Origin: a phage
Reading direction: 5' to 3' (one strand)
Sequence record: PX092659.1
DNA: 64,000 nt
Part shown: piece by piece, positions 13,607 through 63,508 of the stretch
Layout: each line of letters begins with the position of its first letter
How positions within the stretch are numbered: the first letter of the stretch is position 1
Position numbers and translations under genes: made by a program
Notes under the pieces: model-generated
The model's input: only the letters and a program-made list of their open reading frames with translations
What the model was told of the DNA's origin: nothing
Databases searched by the model: none

Positions 13607-13888
13607 ATGATTTCAGCCAAAGAAGCCCAAGAACTTGCAGGATTAACAGAAGTACCCGCATTTCTAAAGTTTATAGAAGAAAAGATTGTAGAAGCTGCTA
13701 AGTCTGGAAATACAGAAGTAATTATTCGAGATAATCCTTACGCTAGGTGGCTATATAATCCTAGAGAAATGCCAGGAGCCGCTAAATCGGTACTAAAAAC
13801 CTTATCGGATAAGGGGTATCATCACTCACAATACTACCGAGAAGCCGCCTTTGTAGACATGGGTCTTAAAATTAGTTGGGGGGTATAA
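13607..13888 (+). CDS. hypothetical protein (93 aa)
   Basis: ORF after promoter with GGAGG RBS; stop overlaps rnh start. Confidence 0.5.
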   Translation: MISAKEAQELAGLTEVPAFLKFIEEKIVEAAKSGNTEVIIRDNPYARWLYNPREMPGAAKSVLKTLSDKGYHHSQYYREAAFVDMGLKISWGV

Positions 13889-44525: not shown

Positions 44526-44804
44526 ATGGAAAACATGACTAAAGACTTCGACGCCTCTAACCTTACCAAGACTGAAATGGCCAATGTATTAGCAATTCTC
44601 CTCGACATGCAAGGATTTGAGGGGCAACTGATGAAAATGTCTATTCCGGCGATGAAGAAGATGTATGATTCTCTTAACAAGAACGCTATGGCCTTTAACT
44701 TAGCAAAACAAGAGGCACGCTTTGCTAAGGAGCATCAAGCAGTGGCAGAACGCCGAGCAGCTAGCTTTGAGCGTGAAGTCAAGCAATTAAAGAAAAAATG
44801 CTAA
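44526..44804 (+). CDS. hypothetical protein (92 aa)
   Basis: Listed ORF 44508.. trimmed to ATG after GAGGAAA. Confidence 0.45.
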   Translation: MENMTKDFDASNLTKTEMANVLAILLDMQGFEGQLMKMSIPAMKKMYDSLNKNAMAFNLAKQEARFAKEHQAVAERRAASFEREVKQLKKKC

Positions 44805-45334
44805 CACAAGAAAGATTAAAAGAGTTATTTGAATACCGCCCGGAAACGGGCGAGTTTATAAGGAAAGTCAGTAGAGGACGAGGTAAAGCAGGTAGTATTG
44901 CTGGTAGTCCTGATAAGGATGGTTATATATTTATTGGGATAAATAGAAGAAGATATGCAGCCCATAGGTTAGCCTTTTTGTACATGGAGGGGTATATTCC
45001 AAATCTAGTACACCACTTAAATAATATAAGAAAAGATAATAGATGGTGTAATTTAAAAGATTGTACGTCCCAAGAAAATAATCGTAGCAAAATCGCTCAA
45101 TCTAATTCGGGGTACTTAGGAGTTACCTGGAAAAAAGATCGACAACAATGGAGAGTCCAGGCCAGAAGCGCCGAAAGCATTACAGTACACGGAGGCTACT
45201 TTAGGTATCTAGATTTAGAGTTGGCAGTTCAAAGAGCTAATGAACTACGTTTAGAACTACATGGGCCTAATGCTGTTATAGAAACTTTTGATCATACAAA
45301 ACCCTTACCTACTTTAGAGGACTTAAATAAATGA
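44798..45334 (+). CDS. HNH homing endonuclease
   Basis: AAHRLAFLYMEGYIPNLVHHLNNIRKDNRWCNL...QEN and AP2-like GVTWKKDRQQWRVQ. Confidence 0.7.
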   Translation: MLTQERLKELFEYRPETGEFIRKVSRGRGKAGSIAGSPDKDGYIFIGINRRRYAAHRLAFLYMEGYIPNLVHHLNNIRKDNRWCNLKDCTSQENNRSKIAQSNSGYLGVTWKKDRQQWRVQARSAESITVHGGYFRYLDLELAVQRANELRLELHGPNAVIETFDHTKPLPTLEDLNK

Positions 45335-48823: not shown

Positions 48824-49708
48824 ATGTATAACTTTAAAGATAAACTAAGACAAAATGCTGGTAAAACAAAACCTAAAGAGAACAATAATATTCCTAATGC
48901 CAAAGTATTACCATTTCCAGAACTATCTCAAGAAGAAAAAGATAAATTAGCATTTATGTTTGATGCCCTTCTAGGGCTAAATGGACGTTTATATTCCTCA
49001 CTCAATATTAATGAGAAACGTTTAGTAGAGATGTTTTGTAAACGTTATCAAGTTACTTCAAAGGGCAATTCTTATAAAGAAGGCGAGAAAGCATTCACAG
49101 TCTTAAAAATCAGTGCATATGCACATCGTTTCTTAGTTTATGGGTTACAGATGGAATACTTCACCATCCCATCATTTAGCTCTTTCCATATCTTTGAAGA
49201 TGAACGAATGAATATTGATGATCTCTATGGGGATACGTACAAATATTCAGGAAGTCCATTCCATGATGCATTAAGAAGCTATCCTACTAGTTATCTGCCA
49301 GTTAGGGCATCACAAGGTAAAGCTAGCGTCTTCGCTGTGTACTCAGGATCTAAAGCATCGGATCTAGAAACTTATATATTTAAAGAGCGTAAATCTGTGC
49401 TTCCAGATGAAGCATTGTATAACAATCCGTTGCTTCCAGAAAAAGAACCAGAAAAAACTGATGTAACCCAACCAATCCCATCTGATTCTCAGTATTTAAT
49501 TTATGAGAAACAAGTTAAGTTATCTCTAGAAATTGGGTTAGTTACACCGCTTGCTGCAGCGTTCATAAATAGATATCTAGAAATTCCTGACGAGTTCCAC
49601 ACACGTTATAATACGAATATTCAGATAACAGATGAACTAATTGCGTTAGCAAAAGATACACCTACAGATACTGAGGCGTATCAAAAAGCATACCAAGAGT
49701 TACTGTAA
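48824..49708 (+). CDS. hypothetical protein (294 aa)
   Basis: ORF with GGAGA RBS; last plus-strand gene before the repeat region. Confidence 0.55.
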   Translation: MYNFKDKLRQNAGKTKPKENNNIPNAKVLPFPELSQEEKDKLAFMFDALLGLNGRLYSSLNINEKRLVEMFCKRYQVTSKGNSYKEGEKAFTVLKISAYAHRFLVYGLQMEYFTIPSFSSFHIFEDERMNIDDLYGDTYKYSGSPFHDALRSYPTSYLPVRASQGKASVFAVYSGSKASDLETYIFKERKSVLPDEALYNNPLLPEKEPEKTDVTQPIPSDSQYLIYEKQVKLSLEIGLVTPLAAAFINRYLEIPDEFHTRYNTNIQITDELIALAKDTPTDTEAYQKAYQELL

Positions 49709-50225
49709 GATCCTGCATGTCTCGGTGCACAATACCTGTACCGAGACAGAAATACAAACTCTCGTTGACAGATAGCTAAATGTATGTTATCATAACTCTA
49801 TGAGTTAATAGAATTAACCATTTAGAGTTGCCACACAGAAGGTGTGGTGGTTCAGTAATTTAAAATTACTAACTTGTAGCGTAGGATACGGAGCGACAGG
49901 ACAAGTTAATAAGTAATTTAATATAAATTGCTAGAAACATCACAAGACCTTCTGGCGGGGGCAAAGCTCTATATGAGAACCCTGGGGGATCTTATATTTA
50001 AAATAAAAGTAAAACTTTTGACCACATAATTTACATTCAAGATGATACACCTGTTGCCGCTCATCTGCTAGGATGGTACAACACTTTCTTCTAGACTCCT
50101 AAGTTTCTAGGGCAGTTTTCATTGTTCCTAGAAACTCCAGCAATAGGCGGTTAATACAGGGCGGTTATAGGGAGGGCGGTTATTTCTAGAAGACATTTTT
50201 TGAAAACACATTTCCAGAAATTACT

Positions 50226-50825
50226 GTCGGATTTGCACATTGTGTTTCTAGAAATTTATGGTCGGATTTGCACAAACGCCTAAGTTTTTAGGAACATATA
50301 ATCTCCTGAAAATAGCAGCATTATTTCGGGCCGAAGGCCCATGATTGCCTGAGTTTTTAGAGCCACAAGAATTTTCACTTGTCAAGCTATTTTGCCCCAT
50401 TTAGCTAATAAAATTTTACTTTTTCTGCACCTATCTCAAATTTCCCCAAATTATCTCAACTCTTCCCCAAAATCCCCGCAAATCAGGTGCTTCGCACCAA
50501 TCCTGCGCCCACATCCTTCTAGCTCCCAAATTTTTCTCGCTCTCTCATCTTCTCCTCAAACCTATACAATCACACACCCTCCAATCGAAGTCACAAAAAT
50601 CTTGTCGGATTCGCACATCTTAATCCTAGAAAAACCGTGTCGGATTTGCACATACCCCACAGGATTCGAACGCAGTTCGTGATTGCTGGAGTTTTTGGGA
50701 AAATTCGTCGTCGGATTCGCACATCACAAAAGTTTTTAGGGTCGGATTTGCACACTACCAAAAATTGTCGGATTCGCACATACACGCCAGCACGTAACCC
50801 TTGGAGCAAATGTCGGATTTGCACA
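50226..50825 (+). repeat. eight direct copies of GTCGGATT(T/C)GCACA
   Basis: Copies at 50226, 50261, 50604, 50639, 50710, 50741, 50767, 50812, all in the same orientation with irregular spacing. Confidence 0.85.
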
Positions 50826-50864
50826 AAAGCGCAGGGCAATTGCCCTGCTCGCCTGAATGCGAAT

Positions 50865-50957
50865 GATAATAAGAATCATTATCATTTAAAAAGCGAAATG
50901 AGAATGATAATAATTCGCATTTAAAAAGTGAAATGCGAATGATAATAATTCGCATTT
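50865..50957. promoter_or_regulatory. cluster of three AT-rich operator-like palindromes (Fur-box-like)
   Basis: 50865-50883 gataataagaatcattatc is 17/19 to GATAATGATAATCATTATC; 50896-50922 and 50931-50957 are 27-bp palindromes aaatg(a/c)gaatgataataattcgcattt. Confidence 0.45.
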
Positions 50958-50967
50958 AAGAATGGAA

Positions 50968-51099
50968 GTGAGAAACACTATTATTTAAGTTATCCACAGA
51001 CTTATTAACAGCACGATTTGACTTGACAGAATCCTAGCCATTTTGAGGCGTTATTAACAGACTTATCCACAGCTTATCCTACTGTATAAATATACAGTA
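50968..51099. repeat. left arm of ~130-bp imperfect inverted repeat carrying DnaA boxes and a LexA box
   Basis: Starts gtgagaaacact; TTATCCACA at 50990-50998 and 51063-51071, TTATTAACA variants at 51003 and 51050; about 80% identical to the reverse complement of 53916-54045. Confidence 0.8.
51080..51099. promoter_or_regulatory. LexA (SOS) box-like site
   Basis: TACTGTATAAATATACAGTA fits CTGT-N8-ACAG with AT spacer and TA flanks. Confidence 0.55.
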
Positions 51100-51293
51100 T
51101 TCCTATGTAGTGAATAATTCTAATATACCGCTAAAACGTCCTAGATCGCATTCTAACGCGTTTAATTTTGGTGGGGATACTAAAACAAGGGCAAAATTGG
51201 AGGAGGCTTAAAAATTAGTTAGCCCGCTAACGATCACACAAGGCGACACGTAACACCCTAATCATTAGCAGGCTAACCATCGCGGGCGCAGTC

Positions 51294-51314
51294 AAATGAG
51301 AATCATTCTCATTT
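51294..51314. promoter_or_regulatory. perfect 21-bp palindrome AAATGAGAATCATTCTCATTT
   Basis: Core TGAGAATCATTCTCA is 13/15 to Fur core TGATAATCATTATCA; same half-site as the palindromes at 50896-50957. Confidence 0.4.
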
Positions 51315-51355
51315 GAGAATTGGGGGTACTCCCTGGTAGTTGCGCCCCGTGATTA

Positions 51356-51550
51356 TTAGTCCGGTAATTGATGCGTGATCTTCTCCTCCTCCCCGTAGGA
51401 ATCGACCAAATGCTGATAATAACCATCGTGATCATAAATCACTTTATCATACTCGCCCCGCTCGACCGCTTGCCGGTTTTCCGGCGTATCGGGCACGTAA
51501 AAAACATCAACCATTGTACTGATTTTGGTTACAACAATTTTATTGCTCAT
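51356..51550 (-). CDS. hypothetical protein (64 aa)
   Basis: Last ORF of the minus-strand cassette. Confidence 0.45.
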   Translation of the reverse strand: MSNKIVVTKISTMVDVFYVPDTPENRQAVERGEYDKVIYDHDGYYQHLVDSYGEEEKITHQLPD

Positions 51551-51891
51551 TGCGCCACCTTTCGAAACGCTGTTTCAATACTATCCGCAGTGGATTGAAT
51601 ATATGCGCCTTTCATTATCAGGCGCTCGGTGCATATCTTGCGGAAAATATTAATAAAATCATCTTCATTTTCTGCAATTAACGCTTCACCCATAACCTGA
51701 ACGTCACAAGATGCAAAGGTCAAAAATTGAAACGCTAGTTCACGGGCAACGACCGCATTGATTTTATAATGCGCCGTGCCCTCATAAATATTAATAACGC
51801 CCTTATAAGCTGGTGAAAGCTGGTTTAAATAGTTTGCTAATAATGCCGGACGGCAATTAGCAACAAAGCGGTTGCCCTCATAAATAACCAT
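51547..51891 (-). CDS. hypothetical protein (about 114 aa)
   Basis: Listed ORF 51547..51930 trimmed to internal ATG (MVIYEGN). Confidence 0.45.
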   Translation of the reverse strand: MVIYEGNRFVANCRPALLANYLNQLSPAYKGVINIYEGTAHYKINAVVARELAFQFLTFASCDVQVMGEALIAENEDDFINIFRKICTERLIMKGAYIQSTADSIETAFRKVAQ

Positions 51892-51892
51892 T

Positions 51893-52105
51893 TTATAACA
51901 CTCCCCGAAACGCAGCGTAAAAGGTGGCAAAGTGTTTAACCGTTTCAGCGATCACGTTGCCGCGCTTGTCGAATTTTTTCTCGGTAACACGAAAGGCATT
52001 TTTGTTACGTGCTACATATTCGATTTTACAATCTTCCCGCTCGAACGTGCTAACATCCACCAGCTTAAAGCCTTTCGAACGAGCAAGAGAAACGTTGCGG
52101 ATCAT
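51893..52105 (-). CDS. hypothetical protein (70 aa)
   Basis: ORF; AGGAG RBS on minus strand. Confidence 0.45.
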   Translation of the reverse strand: MIRNVSLARSKGFKLVDVSTFEREDCKIEYVARNKNAFRVTEKKFDKRGNVIAETVKHFATFYAAFRGVL

Positions 52106-52107
52106 TT

Positions 52108-52257
52108 TTATTCTCCTTTACTAGTCATGCAGCCCAGCAGATAAGAAAATACAGCAATGCCAGCACCAACAATAACGGCGTGAACACCGAAAGCTATTGC
52201 AAACAACGATAAAATAGCGCCCAAGATACCTGCCAGAATAGCTCGAAAAATAACCAT
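52108..52257 (-). CDS. small membrane protein (49 aa)
   Basis: Hand-translated minus-strand ORF MVIFRAILAGILG...; stop abuts next start; below ORF-track cutoff. Confidence 0.3.
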   Translation of the reverse strand: MVIFRAILAGILGAILSLFAIAFGVHAVIVGAGIAVFSYLLGCMTSKGE

Positions 52258-52306
52258 TTGTAATACTCCCCTAGTTAGTGGGGCGAAAGTAACGCCCCGT
52301 TATTAA

Positions 52307-52570
52307 TTACATTAAAACAATTTTTGCCGCTTGTTTTTTGGTACAGTGTTCCGCTTTCAGGGTATCCAGCAAAAAGCCAGCCGTTTGCTGATCAATCTTA
52401 TCAGCGTTATACAATTCTTGGATGGTGTTATAAGTTTTAGCAATGCCGTATTCTTGCACCATTTCGTGAATAATAACGCGATTAGACACCCAGCCTTGAG
52501 CGGTAAACAGATGACTAGCAGAAGAGTATGCAACCATTTTAAGCCTCCAAATTTTTGGGAAAATTTTCAA
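52307..52570 (-). CDS. hypothetical protein (87 aa)
   Basis: ORF in cassette. Confidence 0.45.
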   Translation of the reverse strand: MKIFPKIWRLKMVAYSSASHLFTAQGWVSNRVIIHEMVQEYGIAKTYNTIQELYNADKIDQQTAGFLLDTLKAEHCTKKQAAKIVLM

Positions 52571-52600
52571 CCGTCCTCAAACGGTGTAAAGGCATTATAA

Positions 52601-52629
52601 CAAAAAAGGCCGCTGATTATGGCGGCCTT
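52601..52629 (-). terminator. intrinsic terminator (minus strand)
   Basis: Stem aaggccgc/gcggcctt; on minus strand followed by TTTTTTG; downstream of the 330-aa gene. Confidence 0.65.
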
Positions 52630-52655
52630 TACAAAACTTTACACTAGGTTAATTA

Positions 52656-53648
52656 TTACTCGCTTTCGGTGCTAGTGGTAAAAGTAGAAATATCAATACC
52701 TTTCACCATTTCATCAATCATCTCAGCGATGTTAAAACTTTGCACCATTTCTAACATAGCCGCTTCCATAGCTGCACCCGCTACCGCTTTCGCCTTTTGG
52801 TTAGCAGGGGCGTACTGGTCAACCGCTACGCTCAGCAGGTTGGCAATCACTACTCGACCAATCGGCGTATCAATATAACCTTTGATCATGAATGGTGCTT
52901 TTTTAGCCGCTACTTTCGTGATTTGGGTTAATGCAATTTTACCCGCTTCCAGTTTTGCAGCATTTACAATAGCGGATTTATTAGCGGCAACGATGTTAGC
53001 AATCTTGGTCATGGTGTTTTTTCCTTTGTTTTCAGTAGTTTGAATTTTAACGCTTTGAGTGTTAGAATTTACAGCATGGTTTTCCGTATTGTCAATAGGC
53101 TGATTTTCATCTTTCCAGAAAGTAAAACCGGCTTCCTGTATCAGATCATTATAAACATACGGGTATAACTCCGACGGTAACAAAAAATTACCGTTATCAT
53201 CAAAAGCCATTACAGCCGCAAAACGATACCCGTCATAATCTGATCGATTCCATCCAACTGATAAATAACGCCAAAATGAATCGAGAAAATTTTCTACGTC
53301 ATAAAGATCCTTATCATAAGGCTCATAATTTTCTATCGTGAAAACTTCTAAGCTCGCCCCCGCATCATAGGCTTTTACTGTATTGCCTTTTACTACGATA
53401 AAATCAGTATCTGGCCCTCGACTAGTAAGCAAGTGAGATTCCTGATTATATAAAACAAGCGTTGCCCCTTGCTTATATAACGGTAGAAAACTATTCATAT
53501 TATAAGCATCATAATCATCAAAAAAGTTATGATGAATAGTTTCAATATTGAAAACAAAATGTTTGATGCTGGTTGTTCTGCTACCGTCCAGCAGGTTACG
53601 CAGCGCACCTTTTAAGATGGTTGCGTTATCTGGTTTATATAGCCTCAT
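52656..53648 (-). CDS. hypothetical two-domain protein (330 aa)
   Basis: N-terminal ~180-aa domain, polar linker, Ala/Lys-rich helical C-terminus; first gene of the cassette. Confidence 0.55.
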   Translation of the reverse strand: MRLYKPDNATILKGALRNLLDGSRTTSIKHFVFNIETIHHNFFDDYDAYNMNSFLPLYKQGATLVLYNQESHLLTSRGPDTDFIVVKGNTVKAYDAGASLEVFTIENYEPYDKDLYDVENFLDSFWRYLSVGWNRSDYDGYRFAAVMAFDDNGNFLLPSELYPYVYNDLIQEAGFTFWKDENQPIDNTENHAVNSNTQSVKIQTTENKGKNTMTKIANIVAANKSAIVNAAKLEAGKIALTQITKVAAKKAPFMIKGYIDTPIGRVVIANLLSVAVDQYAPANQKAKAVAGAAMEAAMLEMVQSFNIAEMIDEMVKGIDISTFTTSTESE

Positions 53649-53915
53649 TTGTTCGGCCTCCCTCGTTAATCGGTGAGTGAATGATAAAGGTAATTTTCTA
53701 ACATAGGCAAATATTATTTTACCTTTTTATTTTCCTTGCCTAGCGCCTAGTTTTATGCTAACCGCGCAGCGGTGCAATAAAGAGCAAAACACGGCGAAGC
53801 CACCAGGGCGACGGGTGAAGGCTTTACTTTAATATTGCCCCACCGCATTTAGCTCGTTAGAAAGCGTTTTAGGCCGCTTAAAATTGATTGCAGTTGTTAA
53901 CACTACCTTTCTACC

Positions 53916-54045
53916 CTGTATATTTATACAGTAGGATAACCTGTGGATAAGTCTGTGGATAAGCCCTTATATCGCCGCCTATCGTGTCAAATCAAAAAGT
54001 GCTGTGGATAACGTTGTGGATAACTTAAATAACAGTGTTTCTCAC
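53916..54045. repeat. right arm of inverted repeat carrying a LexA box and four DnaA boxes
   Basis: CTGTATATTTATACAG at 53916-53931; TGTGGATAA (reverse complement of TTATCCACA) at 53942, 53954, 54003, 54015; ends agtgtttctcac. Confidence 0.8.
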
Positions 54046-54213
54046 TAACTAATTTATAAAGTTATTATATCGTAAAACATAGTTAGTTGGCTAATAGGAT
54101 TTTACCGTGATTATGAGTCTGCTAACTAATCCTGAAAAACTCATTAGCTCGCTTGCTAACTATTTTGATATAATATAATAGAGATTAAATTAATAACATA
54201 AGGAAACAATTAG

Positions 54214-54732
54214 ATGCCTAAATATAAAGATATAGATTATGACCTTTTTAATAGTTACTTTTATTATGATGAAACAGCGTTATCATTTTTACGTTGGCGG
54301 GAGGATCACGCCGTCGCAGGTGGTTTAAATGGTAATTATTGGCAAGTTGAATTATTAGACATGGGGCAATTCAAAGTACATAGAATTATCTTTTGTATAA
54401 TGAATGGCGGTATAGATAGCGAGCTAATGATTGACCATATTGATCGTAACACACGTAACAATAACATCTGGAATCTTCGCGCGGTTGATAGTTCGCAGAA
54501 TAATTATAATCGTACTCCTAGTGAGTATGAAAACTGTAAGCGTGCTAATGGTATCCCTAGAAACATTTACGTTAATAAAGTTCGCCCCCGTGATAGTTTC
54601 GGGCGTGATTATTTAACTGCTCAAATTAAGAATCCTATTACTAACAAGCGTGTTAGTAAGCCTGGTTATGATTTACAAGAGTTATTATTATGGCTTGAAG
54701 CTAAAAAAGCTGAATTTGGAATTGTCAATTAA
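54214..54732 (+). CDS. HNH endonuclease
   Basis: VHRIIFCIMNGGIDSELMIDHIDRNTRNNNIWNLRAV...QNN. Confidence 0.65.
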   Translation: MPKYKDIDYDLFNSYFYYDETALSFLRWREDHAVAGGLNGNYWQVELLDMGQFKVHRIIFCIMNGGIDSELMIDHIDRNTRNNNIWNLRAVDSSQNNYNRTPSEYENCKRANGIPRNIYVNKVRPRDSFGRDYLTAQIKNPITNKRVSKPGYDLQELLLWLEAKKAEFGIVN

Positions 54733-55121
54733 TTAATTTTATAAAATAACTCGTTTAGTCTTGATTTTTAAAAGTCAAGACCTTTTTCAACTATTTTTCA
54801 ATTTTGCGGTTGTTAAATATTTGTTAAGTCAAAAATAAGCGGCCTAAAACGCCCTAGAACGCGATGAAAGTTTTAGCCATGCCATTGCATTGCCTACCCT
54901 CGTTTATCGCTACCACGAGCTTTTTAGATTTTGTCAAGTAGGGCAAGGCAAATAAAACTGAAAAAATTACTTGCCAACCTGCTGGGTTTTATGGTATTCG
55001 CGCGCCCGTTTCCTTTAAACTTAGGTGAGCGCCGGACGCGGTGCGGTGAAACTGTGTTAGCCATATTGCTAATAATTTTGGTATAATATAATAACCAAAT
55101 GAAACTAATAGGAGAATATTA

Positions 55122-55463
55122 ATGATTGAGCTAACAAAAGATATTGATTTAGAAACTGTACTAGATAATCTTTACTATGATGAAACTAGTCCCAGTTGCC
55201 TACGGTGGAAAGTATCCCGCCCCGGTTGCGCCCTTCATGGGGTAGCAGGTACTAAAAGAAAGGATGGTTACTGGTCTGTACAGCTCAATAAAGAGCGTTA
55301 CTTAGCGCATCGTATTGTGTGGTTATTATTTAATTATAAAATAGATAGCAAACTAGTAATTGATCATATTGATCGTAACCCTAGTAATAATTTTATTGAT
55401 AACTTACGGTTAGTAACTCAAGCCGAAAACAACCAAAATAAGGGAGGCTATAGAAAGGCGTAA
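55122..55463 (+). CDS. HNH endonuclease-like protein (paralog of 54214..54732)
   Basis: AHRIVWLLFNYKIDSKLVIDHIDRNPSNNFIDNLRLV...ENN. Confidence 0.6.
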   Translation: MIELTKDIDLETVLDNLYYDETSPSCLRWKVSRPGCALHGVAGTKRKDGYWSVQLNKERYLAHRIVWLLFNYKIDSKLVIDHIDRNPSNNFIDNLRLVTQAENNQNKGGYRKA

Positions 55464-55595
55464 AACTTACGTTTCTTTACAAAAATAAGGTTGCGCCATT
55501 TTCGGGAATCTCTTACTATTTATCACGTAGGGCGGCAATGACGAACTACACGGCGGGAAGTTTACCGCCACGCTCTTTAAAAATTGGGTACATCT

Positions 55596-55880
55596 TAAAG
55601 CCTATCGGCGGTAAACTTATTCATTATAAGGAATCGACGATATGAAACAAACTCTTTTGATCACTGGCAAGCCTAGCAAGGCACTAGATAGCAAAACAAA
55701 AAATTTGTTGACAGTAGCGCAAAGATCGATAAAATATCGATTTAAGCAGTACAAGAAAGGCCGCCAGCAAGGTCTAGAAATGATCTGGCGAAATATTATG
55801 ATTGACTTAAAAGAAAATCATAAAAAATTGCAAAAAACCGTTTGACAACCTAGCCGATAGGTTTTAAGATGTACCCAGTT
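55596..55880. repeat. 24-bp inverted repeat pair flanking a 67-aa ORF
   Basis: 55596-55619 gggtacatcttaaagcctatcggc versus 55857-55880 gccgataggttttaagatgtaccc (23/24 complementary). Confidence 0.8.
55642..55845 (+). CDS. small basic hypothetical protein (67 aa)
   Basis: ORF bracketed by the 24-bp inverted repeats. Confidence 0.4.
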   Translation: MKQTLLITGKPSKALDSKTKNLLTVAQRSIKYRFKQYKKGRQQGLEMIWRNIMIDLKENHKKLQKTV

Positions 55881-56076
55881 CGATAAGAGCGATAACTTGA
55901 TAAAATTTGACGGTCGGTGCTTACCATAATGCATCCCGCCCCCTAACTGGGATATAGCGGCCTACGTGGAGTTCTTTAAATCGATTATATTGGCGAGCGG
56001 ATTGTTACTTATTACCTGCTGTTACTTTCTAGCAGGTAATGCGGAACAATCCACCAAATAACTCGGAGTTTATATT

Positions 56077-56328
56077 ATGCAAAACGTTATTACCGCGCCT
56101 AAAATTGGTCAATCCGTCTTCATTCCTTTCGTTACTAAAACGGATGAATTAACCGGAAAGGCCGAACGCATTAAAGGTGCGGCGCTTATGCCGTTCGATA
56201 CAATCGACGCGGTATATGCTGAAACTGAACGCAGTAACAACGGCAAGCCTGTTTTTAGCGTTCGCGTTAAATCCGGTGACGTTGTAAAGGTTGTTCAACG
56301 TAACGAAAAATGGGAAGCTGTTTTATAA
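56077..56328 (+). CDS. hypothetical protein (83 aa)
   Basis: ORF with RBS; followed by hairpin atatccccc/gggggatat. Confidence 0.45.
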   Translation: MQNVITAPKIGQSVFIPFVTKTDELTGKAERIKGAALMPFDTIDAVYAETERSNNGKPVFSVRVKSGDVVKVVQRNEKWEAVL

Positions 56329-56427
56329 TTTAGTGTTAACTTTATATCCCCCTAGTAGTTCGGGGGATATAACGATTAACATTATGTTAATCTTATCCCT
56401 TAAATTAAACTAATAGGAGTTTTTACC

Positions 56428-56835
56428 ATGACTAACGTTAAAACCGCAAAATTTTCTTGGAATGAAGAAAACACCCAGCAGGCTGTTACCATGTATCAGC
56501 AGTTAATTAACGAAAACGGTTTAGATTTCGCAAATAGCGACGGTTTAAAAGAAATTGCGAAAGCAGTTGGCGCGGCTTCTCCCGTGTCCGTTCGCTCAAA
56601 ATTGACCAGTGCAAAAGCGTATCAGAAAAGCGATAAGCCGCGCAAAGTTGGCGGCGGTAGCTCAATCCGCAAAGCGCATTATGTGCGCGTTATTGCAAAA
56701 CATGCCATCGATTCCGGCATTATCAAAGACGCTGACGATCTGGCATCACTGGAAAGCGCAAAATTGGAAACGCTGGACGCCGTGGCGCAACTGTTAGGCG
56801 TTGCCGATGAAGTGAAACAAGCCGCAGGCGAATAA
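56428..56835 (+). CDS. hypothetical protein (135 aa)
   Basis: ORF with AGGAG RBS; followed by palindrome agtggggaatattccccact. Confidence 0.5.
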   Translation: MTNVKTAKFSWNEENTQQAVTMYQQLINENGLDFANSDGLKEIAKAVGAASPVSVRSKLTSAKAYQKSDKPRKVGGGSSIRKAHYVRVIAKHAIDSGIIKDADDLASLESAKLETLDAVAQLLGVADEVKQAAGE

Positions 56836-56891
56836 ATTTAATTAGTGGGGAATATTCCCCACTATAATTTCCCTTTGACTGGAGTTTTAAA

Positions 56892-57089
56892 ATGATCCTT
56901 TACCCCACTGAATCCCTCATTCTAGGCTTATTTATTATGGCGGCCTCATTATTATTCGCTTATTTTCAAAATGATTTAGATTCATATTATTTTAAGCGTA
57001 AATCTAAATTGGCAAAACGTTTAGGCTTACTTTGCTTTATTGCCGCCGTTGTTTGTGGTGTTAGTTCTAGTCTAATGCCGATTAGTTAA
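56892..57089 (+). CDS. small membrane protein (65 aa)
   Basis: Two hydrophobic helices. Confidence 0.4.
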   Translation: MILYPTESLILGLFIMAASLLFAYFQNDLDSYYFKRKSKLAKRLGLLCFIAAVVCGVSSSLMPIS

Positions 57090-57187
57090 ATGTTGCAAAT
57101 TATAACGCTGTAAATAAACGGCGTTATATTTGGCAATATTTGCCAATAACAAACGTTTTTTAATCCCTTTAATGGAGTTTTATTAAT

Positions 57188-58852
57188 ATGATTATTTCCG
57201 CAGAAAAACAAACCGTTATCCTGAAAATGGCCGCTGACTTTAATTTCTATGGTAAACGTCTGCGCGCCACTAAACTGGAGGTCTGCGACGATATATCAAA
57301 AGCGGTCTATGATACTACAAAACACTCGACCGCGATTTGTGATTGGTTGGAAGCAAATAAACCAGCGAAACCAAAAGCGGCGAAAGTAGCAAAAGCCATT
57401 AAAAACGACGAGCGCCCAGAAGCGGCGGGGATTGTTTCTAGTACCGTGGAACAATGGGAAGTAAAACAAGGTAAACGCTTTATTATTACGTCGATTCAGA
57501 ATAATACTTTCCCGCATAAAAACTTTTTAGCCTCGTTGGAGCAATTTGCTAAATATATCGGCGCTGATTTGCTGGTTAGCAAGTATATTTATAATAAAAA
57601 CGGATTCCAAAATGGCGAGGGTGCAGATGGAATAAAATATGATTCCGCGTTCGATAAATATATTTGCAGCAAAAACGTGTTTTTGAATAATCGCCGTTTT
57701 GCTTTCATGGCTGAAATTAACGTTTTGCCCACCGCAGATTATCCGCTTTCTGGATTCGCTGAAACTGCAACCGCGCTTAATCTGGAAGGTCTGGCAATTG
57801 GAGCGGCTAAAATCACCGCCGAAAGCGTGCCAGCTTTAAAAGGTGAAATTGTGCGCCGCATGTATTCAACCGGAACGGCAACGCTCAAAAACTACATTCA
57901 GCAGAAAGCAGGGCAAAAAGCCGAAGCATTGCATAATTACGGTGCGCTTATTGTCGAGTTTGATGAGGACGGTGAATTTTTTGTTCGCCAGCTTGAAACG
58001 ATGGACGAAAGCGGCATGTTTTATGATCTGAATATCTGCGCGACCCCCGCCGGATGTTTTGAAACGTCCGATCATGTTTTAGGCTTGCAATATGGCGATA
58101 TTCACGCCGAAAAATTAGATGATGATTGTGCCGTTGCGTCATGGGCTGGCGAAAATAGCTTGCTTGATATTCTCAAGCCTAAATATCAGTTTATCCATGA
58201 CGTGCATGATTTCACATCACGCAACCATCATAACCGTGCGTCAGGTGTATTCCTAGCGAAACAGTATGCAGCCGGACGTGATAAAGTTCTGGATGATCTT
58301 ATCGATACCGGTCGCGTGCTGGAATCAATGGAACGCGATTTTAGCCAAACAATCATTGTTGAATCGAATCACGATTTGGCGCTATCCCGTTGGCTTGATG
58401 ATCGTAATGCTAACATTAAAGACGATCCAGCCAATGCGGAACTATATCACCGCCTAAATGCTGCGATTTATGGAGCTATTGCAAAGCAGGATGATACTTT
58501 CAACGTGCTAGATTATGCGCTGCGTAAGGTTGCAGGTTGTGAGTTTAACGCCATTTTCCTAACGACTGACCAATCTTTCAAGATTGCAGGCATTGAATGC
58601 GGCGTACACGGTCACAACGGCATAAACGGCAGCCGTGGCAATCCGAAACAGTTTAAGAAATTGGGTAAACTGAACACGGGGCACACTCACACCGCCAGCA
58701 TTTACGGCGGGGTATACACCGCTGGCGTGGCTGGTAGTCTGGATATGGGTTACAACGTTGGCGCGTCAAGCTGGACGCAAACGCATTTAATTACATATGC
58801 AAACGGTCAGCGCACTTTGATCGACTTTAAAAACGGTAAATTCTTTGCCTAA
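57188..58852 (+). CDS. A1: pre-early A1-like protein, predicted metallophosphatase/nuclease
   Basis: 554 aa; GDIH, HDVHD, ESNHD, GVHGHNG, GHTH phosphoesterase motifs; position and size match phage T5 A1. Confidence 0.65.
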   Translation: MIISAEKQTVILKMAADFNFYGKRLRATKLEVCDDISKAVYDTTKHSTAICDWLEANKPAKPKAAKVAKAIKNDERPEAAGIVSSTVEQWEVKQGKRFIITSIQNNTFPHKNFLASLEQFAKYIGADLLVSKYIYNKNGFQNGEGADGIKYDSAFDKYICSKNVFLNNRRFAFMAEINVLPTADYPLSGFAETATALNLEGLAIGAAKITAESVPALKGEIVRRMYSTGTATLKNYIQQKAGQKAEALHNYGALIVEFDEDGEFFVRQLETMDESGMFYDLNICATPAGCFETSDHVLGLQYGDIHAEKLDDDCAVASWAGENSLLDILKPKYQFIHDVHDFTSRNHHNRASGVFLAKQYAAGRDKVLDDLIDTGRVLESMERDFSQTIIVESNHDLALSRWLDDRNANIKDDPANAELYHRLNAAIYGAIAKQDDTFNVLDYALRKVAGCEFNAIFLTTDQSFKIAGIECGVHGHNGINGSRGNPKQFKKLGKLNTGHTHTASIYGGVYTAGVAGSLDMGYNVGASSWTQTHLITYANGQRTLIDFKNGKFFA

Positions 58853-58919
58853 TTAAATTTATAAGCTGGGAATATTCCCAGCTTAAACGCCTTATTAAAT
58901 TAATTGGAGTTATATAAGT

Positions 58920-59312
58920 ATGAAAAAGCAAAATATTCCATTCGATCGCGCTCAATCTTCCATTGTTCTGGTTTATTCTAATGGCGAACGTTACCACGTC
59001 GAGGCGGGGCACGTTATTGATGAGCTATTGGACTTTAACGACGCCTTGCAGGTTACTACCTTTGCATATATGCAAGGTAAACTAACCAGCCATATTAAGG
59101 CAAAAGGCGTTTATGTTGACACGGTGAAACAAGAAACGATTATCATCGACTCCGTAAAATCCGGCCTAGCCTTTGCAGTTGTCGCGCCTTGCCCCGCTTG
59201 CCCCGATGATCAATTGACCAGCGCAAAGGTATATACCTGCGCGGGCATTCGTTCCGGTGTATCTGGTGAAGATATTAGTTTTATTGCTGATGCGTTGGCG
59301 TATGGTCTTTAA
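58920..59312 (+). CDS. A2: pre-early A2-like protein
   Basis: 130 aa immediately downstream of the A1-like gene; assigned by position and size only. Confidence 0.45.
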   Translation: MKKQNIPFDRAQSSIVLVYSNGERYHVEAGHVIDELLDFNDALQVTTFAYMQGKLTSHIKAKGVYVDTVKQETIIIDSVKSGLAFAVVAPCPACPDDQLTSAKVYTCAGIRSGVSGEDISFIADALAYGL

Positions 59313-59392
59313 TAGTTGATTTATTATTGCCCGCTATTTATAAGCGGGCAATGCTGGATAAACTAAATCCCTTAAATGGAGAACGTAACAAA

Positions 59393-60127
59393 ATGAATCA
59401 AGTTAAAACGAATATTACCCGTAATTTCCCGCATATTTCCCGCGTCATGATTTGGGATCTGGACGGCACTATCATTAATTCTTTCCATCGCGTAGCGCCT
59501 TGCTTTGATAGCGAGGGCAATTTAGATTTAAATAAGTATAAAAATGAAGCCTGCAAACATGATTTAATAATGCAAGATACACTATTGCCCCTTGTTACAT
59601 ATATGCGCCAGTGCATGAATGACGCAAATACTTTAAACATTATTTGCACCGCTCGACTAATGAGCAAGTCGGACTATTATTATTTGCGCAAACAAGGCTT
59701 GCGCGGTCGTGGTAATAGTAATATCCGCGTGTTTTCCCGTGATACACTGCATAAATATTTTGAGGCTGATAAAGTTAGCGAGATATACCACAGCAAAGAC
59801 GCAGTTTATAAAAGTTACTATTTTGGGCTATTCAAACAATTATATCCGAACGCTGATTTTACAATGATTGATGATCATAAAGGCGTGCTATCAGCGGCAG
59901 CGTCATACGGATTTAAAACGCTGGACGCGCAAGCCGTTAATGATATTCTATCGATCGGCGTTACATTGATAGGTGAAACCTTTATTGATGAATCTCTTGA
60001 GGATGATAATGATTATCAGTTCCTAGCCGATCGCTTGCAATTATGTTGGGAAAGTATGACCGAAGAAGAACGCGCAGAATATAGTTGCAGCCCGCAACAA
60101 TATATTGAGAAATTAAAAGTTGCGTAA
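59393..60127 (+). CDS. dmp: HAD-family 5'-deoxyribonucleotidase-like protein
   Basis: HAD motif I WDLDGTIIN; 244 aa from ATG 59393 (listed ORF starts further upstream at 59327). Confidence 0.65.
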   Translation: MNQVKTNITRNFPHISRVMIWDLDGTIINSFHRVAPCFDSEGNLDLNKYKNEACKHDLIMQDTLLPLVTYMRQCMNDANTLNIICTARLMSKSDYYYLRKQGLRGRGNSNIRVFSRDTLHKYFEADKVSEIYHSKDAVYKSYYFGLFKQLYPNADFTMIDDHKGVLSAAASYGFKTLDAQAVNDILSIGVTLIGETFIDESLEDDNDYQFLADRLQLCWESMTEEERAEYSCSPQQYIEKLKVA

Positions 60128-60144
60128 TAATTAAAGTTGAAATT

Positions 60145-60181
60145 GTTTCACCCTGCAATTAAAATGGTTGCAGGGTGAAAC
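60145..60181 (+). terminator. strong hairpin (possible terminator) after the dmp-like gene
   Basis: Perfect 14-bp stem gtttcaccctgcaa/ttgcagggtgaaac with 9-nt loop; no clear T-run. Confidence 0.45.
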
Positions 60182-60291
60182 AGTTAGCATGGTAATAGTA
60201 ACGGGGGTGGCGGTTAGCAGACTAAGTATTTTCGCCGGAGGCAGTGAGCACACCCTCATGTGTAATCTTATGAAATTTGGCAAAAGTCAAA

Positions 60292-61272: not shown

Positions 61273-61506
61273 TTAGAAAGCCCCTTCGCATGTATTTCCT
61301 TCGGTAAAGTAGCTTACCGGAGCCCAGAAAGACCCGTAGGCCATGATTGGTGCCACTAAGAACATATCCCCTTTCCTATCAAAAACATTGGCCTTATATT
61401 TCACATGATCCTGCATATAGTAGGCCTCACATTTAATATCTTTAGGCCCAAAAGTAGAGCAAGCCGAAAGAAGTACCACTGCCAGAGCTAAAAATAATTT
61501 TTTCAT
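61273..61506 (-). CDS. llp: Llp-like lipoprotein (lytic-conversion / receptor-blocking type)
   Basis: 77 aa; signal peptide with lipobox LLSAC; divergent from the adjacent receptor-binding gene, the arrangement known for T5 llp/oad. Confidence 0.65.
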   Translation of the reverse strand: MKKLFLALAVVLLSACSTFGPKDIKCEAYYMQDHVKYKANVFDRKGDMFLVAPIMAYGSFWAPVSYFTEGNTCEGAF

Positions 61507-61585
61507 TTACATTCTCCTCTATTTAATTTATAATACTATTATACAGAATTATGGCAGTATAAGCAACTAAATTTTTGGAGAACTT

Positions 61586-63508
61586 ATGAGTTTTTTCGCT
61601 GGTAAGCTAAATAACAAATCTATACTCTCACTGCGAAGGGGTAGTGGTGGGGATACTAACCAACATATCAACCCTGATTCCCAAACCATCTTTCACTCAG
61701 ATATGCCGCACGTAATTATAACGGAAACTCATTCTACTGGGTTAAGGTTGGATCAGGGTGCTGGTGACTATTACTGGTCTGAGATGCCTAGTAGAATTAC
61801 ACAGCTACATAATAATGACCCCAATAGAGTTGTGCTAACAGAAATTGAGTTTTCTGATGGCTCTAGACATATGTTATCTGGCATGTCTATGGGGGTAGGG
61901 GCTAAAGCGTATGGAATTATAAATCCGCAGGTCATGTCTCAAGGTGGTTTAAAAACACAAATAACAGCTAGTGCTGATCTATCTCTTGATGTGGGCTATT
62001 TTAATAGTGGTACTAGTGGAACTATCCCCCAGAAATTAAGAGACGGTACTGGATGTCAGCATATGTTTGGCGCCTTTAGTGGGCGTAGAGGGTTTGCATC
62101 TAGTGCAATGTATTTAGGGGGTGCCGCTCTTTATAAGTCTGCCTGGGATGGTTCAGGATATGTAGTGCCGGATTCAGGAACTCTAACTATCCCTAGCGAC
62201 TACGTTAGGCATCCCGGAGCTAGAAACTTTGGATTTAACGCCATATATGTTCGTGGTAGGTCTTGTAATAGAGTTCTTTATGGTATGGAAGGGCCCAACT
62301 ACACCACTGCTGGAGCTGTACATGGGGCGTCGAGTTCAGGGGCTCTTAACTTTATGTCTAATCCTAGCAATCCCTCGGCTCCTAAGTACTCTGTAGGTTT
62401 CGCACGTGCTGATCCCACTAACTATGCGTATTGGGAAAGTATGGGTGATCCGAATGATGCTGCTAATGGGCCCATAGGTATATATAGTGAGCACCTCGGT
62501 ATTTATCCATCTAAAATTACCTGGTATGTTACTAACTTAGTGTATAATGGTTCAGGTTATAGTATTGATGCTGGATTATTTACAGGTAATGATATAAAAT
62601 TAAGCCCCACTGAATTTATTATTAAAGGTATTAACGTTAATAATACATCTTGGAAGTTTATCAACTTTGTTGAGAAAAACTTTAATGTAGGGAGCAGAGC
62701 TGATTTTCGTGATGTTGGGTGTAACTTGAGTATGGGTGGCCCCTCTACTGGGATCTCTGGCATAGCAACATTTGGACTACCAACCACAGAAAGCAATAAC
62801 GCACCAAGTATTAAGGGTGGTAACGTTGGTGGTTTAAATACTAATGTAGTTAGTATTTATAACTTTTTACCTTCAGCATCTTGGTATGTTTCTAGTAATC
62901 CTCCAAAAATAGGGAGTAATTATGGGGACGTTTGGAGTGAAAATCTTCTACCTTTAAGACTTCTAGGTGGTAGCGGAAGTACTGTACTATCTGGTAACAT
63001 AGTATTTCAGGGTAATGGTTCCGTGCATGTTGGTACTGTGGGACTAGATCTTAATAGTAGTAGAAATGGTGCAATTGTATGTACTATGGAGTTCCTAGAT
63101 GACACATGGTTGTCTGCAGGAGGTATTGGCTGCTTTAATCCTACGGAAATGCTATCTAAAGGCGCTGAATATGGCGATAGTAGGTTTAGAATGGGTGGCA
63201 ATACTATTGATAAAAAACTTCACCAAATATTGTCCCTACCTGCAGGAGAATATGTACCATTTTTTACTATTAAAGGTACTGTAGTAAATGCTTGTAAATT
63301 ACAGGCTGCTGGGTATACTCCAACTCCGTACTGGGTATCTGGGTTGCCAGGATCCGTAGGTCAAACGGGTTACTATACTCTAACATACTATATGAGAAAT
63401 GATGGAAATAATAATATCTCTATTTGGTTAGAATCCTCTATGAGCAATATAATTGGCATGAAAGCATGCTTACCAAATATTAAACTTATAATTCAACGCC
63501 TTACCTAA
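61586..63508 (+). CDS. oad: receptor-binding tail protein pb5/Oad-like
   Basis: 640 aa, Gly/Ser/Asn-rich, divergent from llp; size and context match T5 pb5. Confidence 0.65.

What the first reader, a model, noticed from the sequence alone, without database searches (positions are those of the whole stretch)
50858..51321. Fur-box-like palindromic operators in the non-coding region
Four AT-rich palindromes share the half-site AAATG(A/C)GAAT. The first (50865-50883) matches the 19-bp Fur consensus GATAATGATAATCATTATC at 17 of 19 positions by my count. A perfect 21-bp palindrome AAATGAGAATCATTCTCATTT sits at 51294-51314. Iron-responsive control would be notable if the receptor-binding protein in this window targets an iron-regulated outer-membrane receptor as in T5. 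These could equally be operators for a phage-encoded dimeric regulator.
Basis: partly seen in the sequence, partly recalled or inferred. Interest (0 to 1): 0.6.

Follow-up and report, generated by a model that had tools for sequence, protein, structure and literature searches.

The report
Fur-box arrays in T5 injection-stop region
The palindromes are the known "DRC/palC" repeats of the untranslated injection-stop region of a T5-like phage; they match the binding site of the host iron regulator Fur as well as the best natural E. coli sites do, which suggests a testable host factor for T5's unexplained two-step DNA injection.

Summary
The window is a T5-like phage (FhuA-type receptor-binding protein). 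The finding lies in the 1.65-kb untranslated stretch at the inner end of the terminal repeat. This is the catalogued "Repeat Region 3 / injection stop signal", whose function is unknown.

I built a Fur matrix from 17 E. coli K-12 Fur-controlled promoters. With it, 50865-50883 scores 23.7 bits, the best site in all 64 kb. The aerobactin operator, used as an independent control, scores 23.3. The other three palindromes score 17-19 bits and have flanking sites in 6-bp phase. None of 2000 shuffles and 1 of 2000 column-permuted matrices reach the observed maximum.

The arrays are present in all 30 distinct enterobacterial T5-like phages examined, including BtuB-dependent BF23. Variation among copies follows Fur's tolerances. 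The palindrome arms do not covary.

A further perfect 7-1-7 Fur box sits inside dmp and is invariant at synonymous sites. Consensus LexA and DnaA boxes lie alongside the arrays.

The sites sit between convergent transcription units, so they are not classical promoter operators. The link to an iron-regulated receptor is not supported.

Best reading (about 0.5): host Fur binds these arrays at the boundary between first-step and second-step DNA transfer. No paper in the searchable library mentions this. Binding itself is untested.

The parts
50859..50889 (.). DRC unit 1. Phased hexamer array GCGAAT GATAAT AAGAAT C ATTATC ATTTAA; core 19-mer at 50865-50883.
   Evidence: 23.7 bits and 17 of 19 consensus matches. 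Flanking sites at 50859 (12.7 bits) and 50871 (12.5 bits) are in 6-bp phase.
50894..50924 (.). DRC unit 2. CGAAAT GAGAAT GATAAT A ATTCGC ATTTAA; core at 50900-50918.
   Evidence: 19.2 bits, with flanking sites of 10.6 and 13.0 bits at -6 and +6 bp.
50929..50959 (.). DRC unit 3. TGAAAT GCGAAT GATAAT A ATTCGC ATTTAA; core at 50935-50953.
   Evidence: 17.1 bits, with flanking sites of 8.2 and 13.0 bits. The arms are a perfect 10-nt inverted repeat with a 7-nt spacer.
51292..51316 (.). palC. 12+1+12 palindrome TCAAATGAGAAT C ATTCTCATTTGA, an F-F-x-R-R hexamer array.
   Evidence: Two overlapping sites of 17.2 and 14.5 bits, 6 bp apart. Shares the 13-mer AATGAGAATCATT with the aerobactin iucA operator. 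Starts 40 bp downstream of the stop codon of the last minus-strand pre-early ORF.
59999..60023 (.). Fur-like pair inside the 3' end of dmp. It includes a perfect 7-1-7 box TGATAATGATTATCA at 60004-60018 and lies about 230-250 bp from the left physical end of the genome.
   Evidence: 17.2 and 18.6 bits. Present in every related locus that covers the site, at 15-25 bits. Its four Y-ending codons are invariant in 30 distinct dmp genes, whereas only 5 of 35 other such columns are.
51080..51099 (.).
   Evidence: 19 of 20 matches to the LexA consensus. Conserved in all loci, including Vibrio phage Chester.
50990..51071 (+). DnaA-box pairs: TTATCCACA at 50990 and 51063, TTATTAACA at 51002 and 51051. 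These are the IRC'/IRD' elements of the injection-stop region.
   Evidence: Described for T5-like phages in bioRxiv 10.1101/866236.
50831..50848 (-). GC-rich hairpin GCAGGGCAATTGCCCTGC followed by GCTTTTG. Terminator-like on the minus strand, just downstream of the DRC array.
   Evidence: -15.3 kcal/mol.
50226..50825 (+). Eight exact copies of the DRD repeat GTCGGATTYGCACA. They straddle the inner boundary of the terminal repeat (about 50360).

Best explanation
The four palindromes are the DRC repeats and palC of the T5-type 'Repeat Region 3', the untranslated injection-stop region at the inner end of the terminal repeat.

Their sequence is that of high-affinity arrays of Fur-binding hexamers (F-F-x-R and F-F-x-R-R). 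I infer that iron-loaded host Fur coats these arrays once the first-step-transfer DNA is in the cytoplasm.

The arrays lie between convergent transcription units, next to consensus LexA and DnaA boxes. In T5 they bracket the 7.9% stop/shear point. So the likely role is a host-protein nucleoprotein block or architectural element at the boundary between first- and second-step transfer, for example stopping RNA polymerase or modulating the pause or restart. Classical promoter repression is unlikely.

Shown: the sequence match, its specificity, its conservation, Fur-like substitution tolerance, and the genomic position. Inferred: actual Fur binding and any effect on injection or transcription.
For: 1. 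Matrix scores of 23.7, 19.2, 17.1 and 17.2 bits. The real E. coli training sites score 10-23 bits (6.7-22 when each is left out of the training set), and the untrained iucA operator scores 23.3.
2. No shuffle reaches the observed maximum, and 1 of 2000 column-permuted matrices does.
3. Sites come in 6-bp phase. Palindrome lengths across phages are 15, 21, 27 and 33 bp, that is, steps of one hexamer.
4. Arrays are present in all 30 distinct enterobacterial T5-like loci, in T5 itself, in BF23 and in a Klebsiella phage whose A1 is 73% identical, despite variable copy number.
5. Among 47 framed units, the observed variants are ones Fur tolerates (+0.11 bits) and the unobserved ones are not (-2.52 bits). 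Mann-Whitney p = 2e-4; 7 of 5000 permuted matrices do as well. The only freely variable core position is the 'x' of the hexamer model.
6. The arms do not covary.
7. A perfect Fur box of different sequence inside dmp is frozen at synonymous sites.
8. All sites of at least 15 bits in the 64 kb are in the terminal repeat.
9. LexA and DnaA consensus sites are co-located and conserved even in a Vibrio T5-like phage. This shows that host-factor sites are a theme of this region.
10. In T5 the sites span 9549-9718, around the 9618 estimate of the first-step boundary.
Against: - No binding data exist.
- The sites do not overlap a convincing promoter.
- Unit flanks (GTGRAATG ... CATTTAARAA) are conserved beyond what Fur explains. 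Short 23-bp units score only 3-11 bits.
- Phage units prefer GCGAAT over the Fur optimum GATAAT.
- Vibrio phage Chester lacks an array at the equivalent end.
- From general knowledge, fur mutants are not reported to be T5-resistant, so any role would be modulatory.
- T5 degrades host DNA early, which makes titration of Fur away from host genes pointless.
- The matrix was seeded from the consensus.
Confidence: 0.5

Rival explanations
1. The sites are binding sites for a phage-encoded protein. A2, a pre-early DNA-binding protein required for second-step transfer, or A1-A2 together, would recognise AAATGMGAAT half-sites. The Fur likeness would then be coincidence or mimicry.
For: - The half-site and unit flanks are conserved beyond the Fur core.
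- The position is at the injection-stop region, where A1 and A2 must act.
- A related motif, GGTAATGAGACTCATTCTC, lies about 20 bp from the left terminus. It is nearly identical in a Vibrio phage whose A1 is only 33% identical. This would suit a conserved phage protein.
- The A2 homologue is annotated as 'DNA binding protein' in a Klebsiella phage.
Against: - Half-site spacing varies by 6, 12 and 18 bp, which a simple dimer should not tolerate.
- The dmp box lacks the AAATGMGAAT half-site yet is constrained.
- No Pfam DNA-binding domain was found in A2 or the other terminal-repeat ORFs tested. A1 itself and several small ORFs were not tested.
- The match to an independently derived host matrix is as good as the best host sites.
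Confidence: 0.22
2. The palindromes act as nucleic-acid structures. One version is an array of weak intrinsic terminators for the minus-strand pre-early transcript, each an AT-rich hairpin followed by a T-run. The other is DNA cruciforms that impede DNA translocation.
For: - On the minus strand each unit is a 10-bp stem followed by CAC-TTTTT. A strong GC hairpin with a T-run closes the array.
- Folds are -7.5 to -11.7 kcal/mol for units 1 and 3 and for palC, well below shuffles.
- The array lies downstream of the last pre-early ORF.
Against: - Arm complementarity at the variable positions is not maintained: 50 of 80 symmetric against 39.5 expected, and 37 of 80 against 37.4 expected.
- Unit 2 folds to only -4.5 kcal/mol.
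- The stems are AT-rich and there is a 3-nt gap before the T-run.
- It does not explain the Fur-like substitution pattern, the conserved unpaired GATAAT loop or the dmp box.
Confidence: 0.12
3. The motifs are packaging or terminus signals. They would be recognised by terminase or another virion-assembly factor that defines the two ends of the terminal repeat.
For: - Fur-like motifs occur near both ends of the repeat. The dmp box is about 240 bp from the left terminus, and many phages have a site about 20 bp from it.
- The terminal motif is conserved in a Vibrio phage.
Against: - The DRC array is about 500 bp inside the right boundary, with the DRD repeats in between.
- The terminal motif is missing from this window and from BF23, which still have defined ends.
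- The copy number of units is highly variable.
Confidence: 0.08
4. The repeats have no specific ligand. They would be an AT-rich tandem repeat kept uniform by slippage and concerted evolution, and the Fur resemblance would be fortuitous.
For: - Copy number varies from 3 to more than 9 units.
- The units share flanks, as expected from recent duplication.
Against: - The shuffle and permuted-matrix controls.
- Conservation in phages whose neighbouring genes are poorly conserved.
- The substitution pattern.
- Synonymous-site constraint at the separate dmp box.
Confidence: 0.05

Closest known systems
T5 / BF23 'Repeat Region 3' (injection stop signal region): DRC repeats, palC-palJ, IRD'/IRC' DnaA boxes, DRD repeats (Davison, bioRxiv 10.1101/866236)
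   Same: It is the same element. It is an untranslated stretch of 1.2-1.6 kb at the inner end of the terminal repeat. The order of elements is the same: palC, palD, DnaA-box inverted repeats, DRC units, DRD units.
   Different: The literature describes these only as repeats and palindromes of unknown function. Davison's text has no occurrence of Fur, LexA or iron, and no paper in the searchable library links Fur or LexA to first-step transfer. This phage has 3 DRC units and an intact palC. T5 and BF23 differ in unit number and lack a high-scoring palC.
Fur operator arrays of E. coli iron-uptake promoters, e.g. the aerobactin iucA operator (GATAATGAGAATCATTATT), fhuF and fepD-entS
   Same: The scores are the same or better (23.7 against 23.3 for iucA). 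The sites overlap in 6-bp phase and have F-F-x-R(-R) hexamer architecture. palC shares an exact 13-mer with the iucA operator.
   Different: They do not overlap a promoter. They are arranged as 3 to more than 9 tandem units separated by A-tracts. They lie on a virulent phage's terminally repeated DNA, between convergent transcription units.
Fur-repressed promoter of stx1 on Shiga-toxin prophages (from general knowledge)
   Same: A Fur box carried on a phage genome.
   Different: There it is a single operator at a promoter of a temperate phage's cargo gene. Here arrays sit in non-promoter DNA of a lytic phage, conserved across the enterobacterial T5-like phages examined.
Clusters of host-factor sites at replication origins (oriC-type DnaA boxes with IHF/Fis sites)
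   Same: Dense clustering of consensus sites for abundant host DNA-binding proteins (DnaA, LexA, Fur-like) in a non-coding region.
   Different: T5 replication origins are reported near the middle of the genome, and first-step DNA is not replicated at this stage.

Membership tests
Fur-binding site (Fur box) | Match to the 19-bp consensus or weight matrix at the level of experimentally established sites | tested here: met
   The four elements score 23.7, 19.2, 17.1 and 17.2 bits. The 17 E. coli training sites score 10-23 bits and the untrained iucA operator scores 23.3.
Fur-binding site (Fur box) | At least three phased GATAAT-like hexamers, with overlapping sites 6 bp apart | tested here: met
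   Hits at -6, 0 and +6 bp in every unit. Palindrome lengths step by 6 bp. The only free core position is the 'x' of F-F-x-R.
Fur-binding site (Fur box) | Metal-dependent binding by Fur (footprint, gel shift, Fur titration assay or ChIP) | not testable with these tools
   No experimental data were found in the library.
Fur-regulated operator | Overlap with the -35/-10 of a promoter whose transcript is iron-regulated | tested here: not met
   Only 9-of-12 promoter-like matches overlap the units. The region lies between convergent genes.
T5-type injection-stop untranslated region (Repeat Region 3) | Untranslated, repeat-rich stretch at the inner end of the long terminal repeat, with paired DnaA boxes and DRD/DRC repeats in conserved order | tested here: met
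T5-type injection-stop untranslated region (Repeat Region 3) | Acts in cis to halt DNA transfer at about 8% of the genome | not testable with these tools
   By position only: the homologous T5 sites at 9549-9718 bracket the 9618 shear estimate.
Rho-independent terminator | Stable GC-containing stem directly followed by a U-tract, with pairing maintained in evolution | tested here: inconclusive
   The units are AT-rich 10-bp stems with a 3-nt gap before TTTTT, fold to -4.5 to -9.3 kcal/mol, and show no arm covariation. The separate hairpin at 50848-50831 does fit.
Zur box | Match to GAAATGTTATAATATAACATTTC | tested here: not met
   No site in the finding reaches 16 of 23.
Known RNA families (Rfam) | Score at or above the family's gathering threshold | tested here: not met
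   The best hits are 25 bits against thresholds of 90-100.

The most novel reading that the evidence does not exclude
Host global DNA-binding proteins (Fur on the DRC/palC arrays, LexA on palD, DnaA on the paired boxes) assemble on the entering DNA and are the missing host component of T5's injection pause or restart. Two-step DNA transfer would then respond to the cell's iron and SOS state.
Probability: 0.1. Interest if true: 0.85.

Novelty: new member of a known kind. Interest (0 to 1): 0.6.

Why it matters
How T5 stops DNA injection after 8% of the genome, and then restarts, has been open for decades. A 2023 paper on BF23 says that experimental studies of this non-coding region are lacking.

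Recognising that its most repeated elements are near-consensus Fur sites, next to consensus LexA and DnaA sites, turns an uninterpretable set of palindromes into a short list of named host proteins. These can be tested with existing mutants, iron chelation and purified proteins.

If Fur binds, this would also be an unusual use of a Fur array away from any promoter on a virulent phage genome.

Tried and rejected
- **Plasmid origin:** no megablast match to 72,556 plasmids, although the iteron-like repeats and DnaA boxes first suggested a replicon.
- **Published Fur site lists:** the supplements of Chen et al. 2007 are not held, so I built the matrix from K-12 promoters instead.
- **Davison's 2015 review:** not held.
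- **Zur box:** no match.
- **Phage-encoded Fur:** no homologue in the window.
- **Pfam on A2 and nine other ORFs (eight in the terminal repeat plus the flanking early ORF 48824-49708):** no DNA-binding domain.
- **Rfam:** only sub-threshold hits.
- **Hairpin covariation:** absent.
- **Fur titration to derepress host iron genes:** rejected on biological grounds, because T5 destroys host DNA during the first-step stage.
- **Tie to an iron-regulated receptor:** rejected, because BtuB-dependent BF23 has the same arrays.
- **Nick site at 7.9%:** the BF23 paper gave no coordinates, so any relation between the arrays and the nick was not resolved.

Full report
**What the window is.** The 1-kb stretch around the finding matches 452 phage records, all T5-like (Demerecviridae). 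The best are Escherichia phage OSYSP and Salmonella phage Kenya-K20 at about 93% identity. It matches no plasmid.

In phage MM-1 the match lies at 9179-10367, at the inner end of an annotated 10,407-bp left terminal repeat and on the opposite strand. So the window runs opposite to the standard T5 map.

The gene layout is as follows:

| Gene | Window coordinates | Strand |
|---|---|---|
| A2 | 56428-56835 | + |
| A1 | 57188-58852 | + |
| dmp | 59327-60127 | + |
| llp | 61273-61506 | - |
| 640-aa receptor-binding protein | 61586-63508 | + |

The receptor-binding protein is 100% identical to that of phage FFH1 and 94.5% identical to T5 pb5, which binds FhuA.

The record carries one collapsed copy of the terminal repeat, from about 50360 to 60249. 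The left end is fixed by comparison with the BF23 terminus.

**The finding is a known region.** The finding sits in a 1.65-kb stretch without credible genes (49709-51355). On one side is an early ORF ending at 49708 on the plus strand. On the other are pre-early ORFs running from 53648 down to 51356 on the minus strand. The region is therefore a zone of convergent transcription, and BF23 has the same arrangement.

This is the "Repeat Region 3 / injection stop signal" of T5. Davison describes it as a nest of repeats: palC, palD, IRD', IRC', DRC copies with palE to palI, nine DRD copies, and paired DnaA boxes. He calls their functions impossible to guess.

Davison's text contains no occurrence of Fur, LexA or iron. 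Four searches linking Fur or LexA to T5 or first-step transfer returned no relevant paper. A 2023 BF23 paper states that experimental studies of this region are lacking.

The sequences and coordinates are as stated. The elements are a 35-bp tandem repeat of three units plus a 12+1+12 palindrome.

**A Fur matrix built from E. coli.** To test the Fur likeness without relying on the consensus alone, I fetched 17 known Fur-controlled promoter regions from E. coli K-12 MG1655:

- fepA-fes, fepD-entS, fepB-entC
- fhuA, fecA, fecI, cirA, tonB, fiu, fhuE, exbB, fhuF
- fur, ryhB, feoA, yncD-yncE, sodA

From these I derived a symmetric 19-column matrix by seeded iteration. It recovers GATAATGATAATCATTATC. 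The real sites score 10-23 bits, or 6.7-22 bits when each is left out of the training set, and match the consensus at 11-17 of 19 positions.

As an independent control I used the aerobactin iucA operator, which was not in the training set. I located it 20 bp upstream of iucA on 791 plasmids. It scores 23.3 bits.

**Scores in the window.** Site 50865-50883 scores 23.7 bits, the highest in all 64 kb. Sites at 50900, 50935 and 51292/51298 score 19.2, 17.1 and 17.2/14.5 bits. Each is flanked by further sites exactly 6 bp away.

The controls are as follows:

- No dinucleotide shuffle of the region (2000 runs) reaches 23.7 bits. There are nine sites of at least 12 bits, against a shuffle mean of 0.1.
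- When the matrix columns are permuted while keeping symmetry, 1 of 2000 permutations reaches the observed maximum. The match is therefore to Fur's column order, not to AT-rich palindromes in general.
- All seven sites of at least 15 bits in the window lie in the terminal repeat, which is 15% of the window. The best score outside it is 14.3.

**Anatomy of the units.** The units read as phased hexamer arrays:

- Unit 1: CTGAAT GCGAAT GATAAT AAGAAT C ATTATC ATTTAA
- Unit 3: TGAAAT GCGAAT GATAAT A ATTCGC ATTTAA
- palC: TCAAAT GAGAAT C ATTCTC ATTTGA

These are the F-F-x-R and F-F-x-R-R layouts. In the oligonucleotide series tabulated by Chen et al. 2007, those layouts bind Fur most tightly (Table 1). 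palC shares the exact 13-mer AATGAGAATCATT with the iucA operator.

**Comparison across phages.** Forty loci anchored on A2 were fetched from IMG/VR, including T5 itself. Every locus that covers the region has Fur-like clusters at the DRC block, and most also have them at palC. A Klebsiella phage whose A1 is 73% identical keeps them. So does BF23, which uses BtuB rather than FhuA.

The block is a variable-number array of 3 to more than 9 units of 23, 29 or 35 bp. The palindromes are 15, 21, 27 or 33 bp long, so they differ in steps of one hexamer.

Three tests bear on what is being selected:

- **No arm covariation.** At the two variable arm positions, the left and right arms are symmetric in 50 of 80 cases (39.5 expected) and 37 of 80 (37.4 expected). 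Base pairing is therefore not what is maintained.
- **Core conservation.** I collected 47 distinct units by their flanks only. Their unconstrained inner heptamer is GATAAT plus one free base. That free position is the 'x' of the hexamer model.
- **Fur-like tolerance.** At unconstrained positions, the variants seen in phages cost Fur +0.11 bits on average, and the variants never seen would cost -2.52 bits. The Mann-Whitney p is 2e-4, and 7 of 5000 permuted matrices do as well.

**A second, sequence-distinct site.** Inside the 3' end of dmp lies a perfect 7-1-7 Fur box, TGATAATGATTATCA (60004-60018, codons D-D-N-D-Y-Q). It scores 17-19 bits here and up to 24.9 in the most divergent phages. It lies about 240 bp from the physical left end.

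Its four consecutive T/C-ending codons are invariant in 30 distinct dmp genes. Only 5 of the 35 other invariant-residue columns of that kind are codon-invariant. This box lacks the AAATGMGAAT half-site. What it shares with the DRC units is the Fur consensus.

Many relatives also carry GGTAATGAGACTCATTCTC (19.5 bits) about 20 bp from the left terminus. The window and BF23 do not. A near-identical copy follows dmp in Vibrio phage Chester, whose A1 is only 33% identical.

**Other host-factor sites.** TACTGTATAAATATACAGTA (51080-51099) matches the LexA consensus at 19 of 20 positions. A second copy (17 of 20) lies at 53914. Both are conserved in all loci, and Chester has two such boxes next to its DnaA boxes. 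The region also holds the published paired DnaA boxes. The injection-stop region is thus a cluster of consensus sites for abundant host DNA-binding proteins. Chester, however, has no Fur-like array at that end.

**Position relative to function.** In T5 the Fur-like sites span 9549-9718. This brackets the 7.9% (9618 bp) estimate of the first-step boundary.

No convincing promoter overlaps the units, only 9-of-12 matches. On the minus strand each unit looks like a weak terminator: an AT-rich 10-bp stem, a 3-nt gap, then TTTTT. A strong GC hairpin with a T-run at 50848-50831 closes the array. The fold energies are modest, and unit 2 barely folds (-4.5 kcal/mol).

**Rivals.**

- **A phage protein such as A2.** This remains possible. 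Arguments for it are the conserved unit flanks, the low Fur scores of the short units and the deep conservation of the terminal motif. Arguments against are the 6-bp-step spacing, the dmp box, and the absence of a recognisable DNA-binding domain in A2 and the other terminal-repeat ORFs tested. The window encodes no Fur homologue.
- **Structural roles** (terminators or cruciforms). These are weakened by the lack of covariation.
- **A packaging signal.** The DRC array lies about 500 bp inside the repeat boundary, which does not fit.
- **Chance.** This is excluded by the controls above.

**What I do not claim.** Fur binding has not been shown. The sites are not promoter operators. Titration of Fur to derepress host genes makes little sense, because T5 destroys host DNA during the pause. 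The link to an iron-regulated receptor fails on BF23. From general knowledge, fur mutants are not reported to be T5-resistant, so any role would be modulatory.

**Verdict.** The Fur-box interpretation is supported at the sequence level, but the 'operator' reading is not. The elements are already catalogued; their identity as near-consensus Fur arrays, next to LexA and DnaA boxes, appears to be undescribed in the searchable library. It gives the two-step injection problem concrete, cheap experiments.

Noticed in passing
window 51080-51099 and 53914-53933: Near-consensus LexA (SOS) boxes: TACTGTATAAATATACAGTA (19 of 20) and CCCTGTATATTTATACAGTA (17 of 20). Both are conserved in every T5-like locus examined and in Vibrio phage Chester. 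Neither is mentioned in the T5 papers I could read.
   Followed up: partly
window 60004-60018 (inside dmp, 59327-60127): A perfect 7-1-7 Fur box, TGATAATGATTATCA, encoded as D-D-N-D-Y-Q. It has no synonymous variation in 30 distinct dmp genes and lies about 240 bp from the genome's left physical end.
   Followed up: yes
L002 about 13785-13803 (near the contig end); L057 7975-7997; absent around window 60190-60249: The motif GGTAATGAGACTCATTCTCATCT lies about 20 bp from the left terminus in many T5-like phages. It is almost identical after dmp in Vibrio phage Chester (A1 33% identical). It is missing from this window and from BF23, which share a different terminal sequence.
   Followed up: partly
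window 50226-50825: Eight exact plus-strand copies of GTCGGATTYGCACA (DRD repeats) straddle the inner boundary of the terminal repeat (about 50360). The core ATTTGCACA matches the relaxed DnaA box TTWTNCACA at 8 of 9 positions. Their position at the repeat boundary could also suit a packaging or cleavage signal.
   Followed up: partly
window 49765-49793 (+): A strong sigma-70-like promoter (TTGACA, 17 nt, TG-TATCAT; 11 of 12) lies just after the early ORF that ends at 49708. It points into the untranslated repeat region. What it transcribes is unknown.
   Followed up: no
window 50822-50966 (-): Sub-threshold Rfam hits to small RNAs: SprD (25 bits) and PrrF (22 bits), against thresholds of 90-100. 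They cover the DRC units plus the GC hairpin terminator and are probably driven by the hairpin-plus-terminator shape.
   Followed up: partly
window 60249/60250 and 61273-63508: The record is assembled with a single collapsed terminal repeat. The left end of the repeat (…GGCAGTGAGC | ACACCC…) abuts the right-hand unique region, which carries llp and the pb5-type receptor-binding protein (100% identical to FFH1, 94.5% to T5).
   Followed up: yes
window 54214-54732 and 55122-55463 (+); also 44798-45334: Three ORFs share an N-terminal YYDET..LRW-type motif and look like homing-endonuclease insertions. A Klebsiella relative annotates an HNH endonuclease at the equivalent place. One of the ORFs holds a 15.3-bit Fur-like hit at 54499, which is probably chance.
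   Followed up: no
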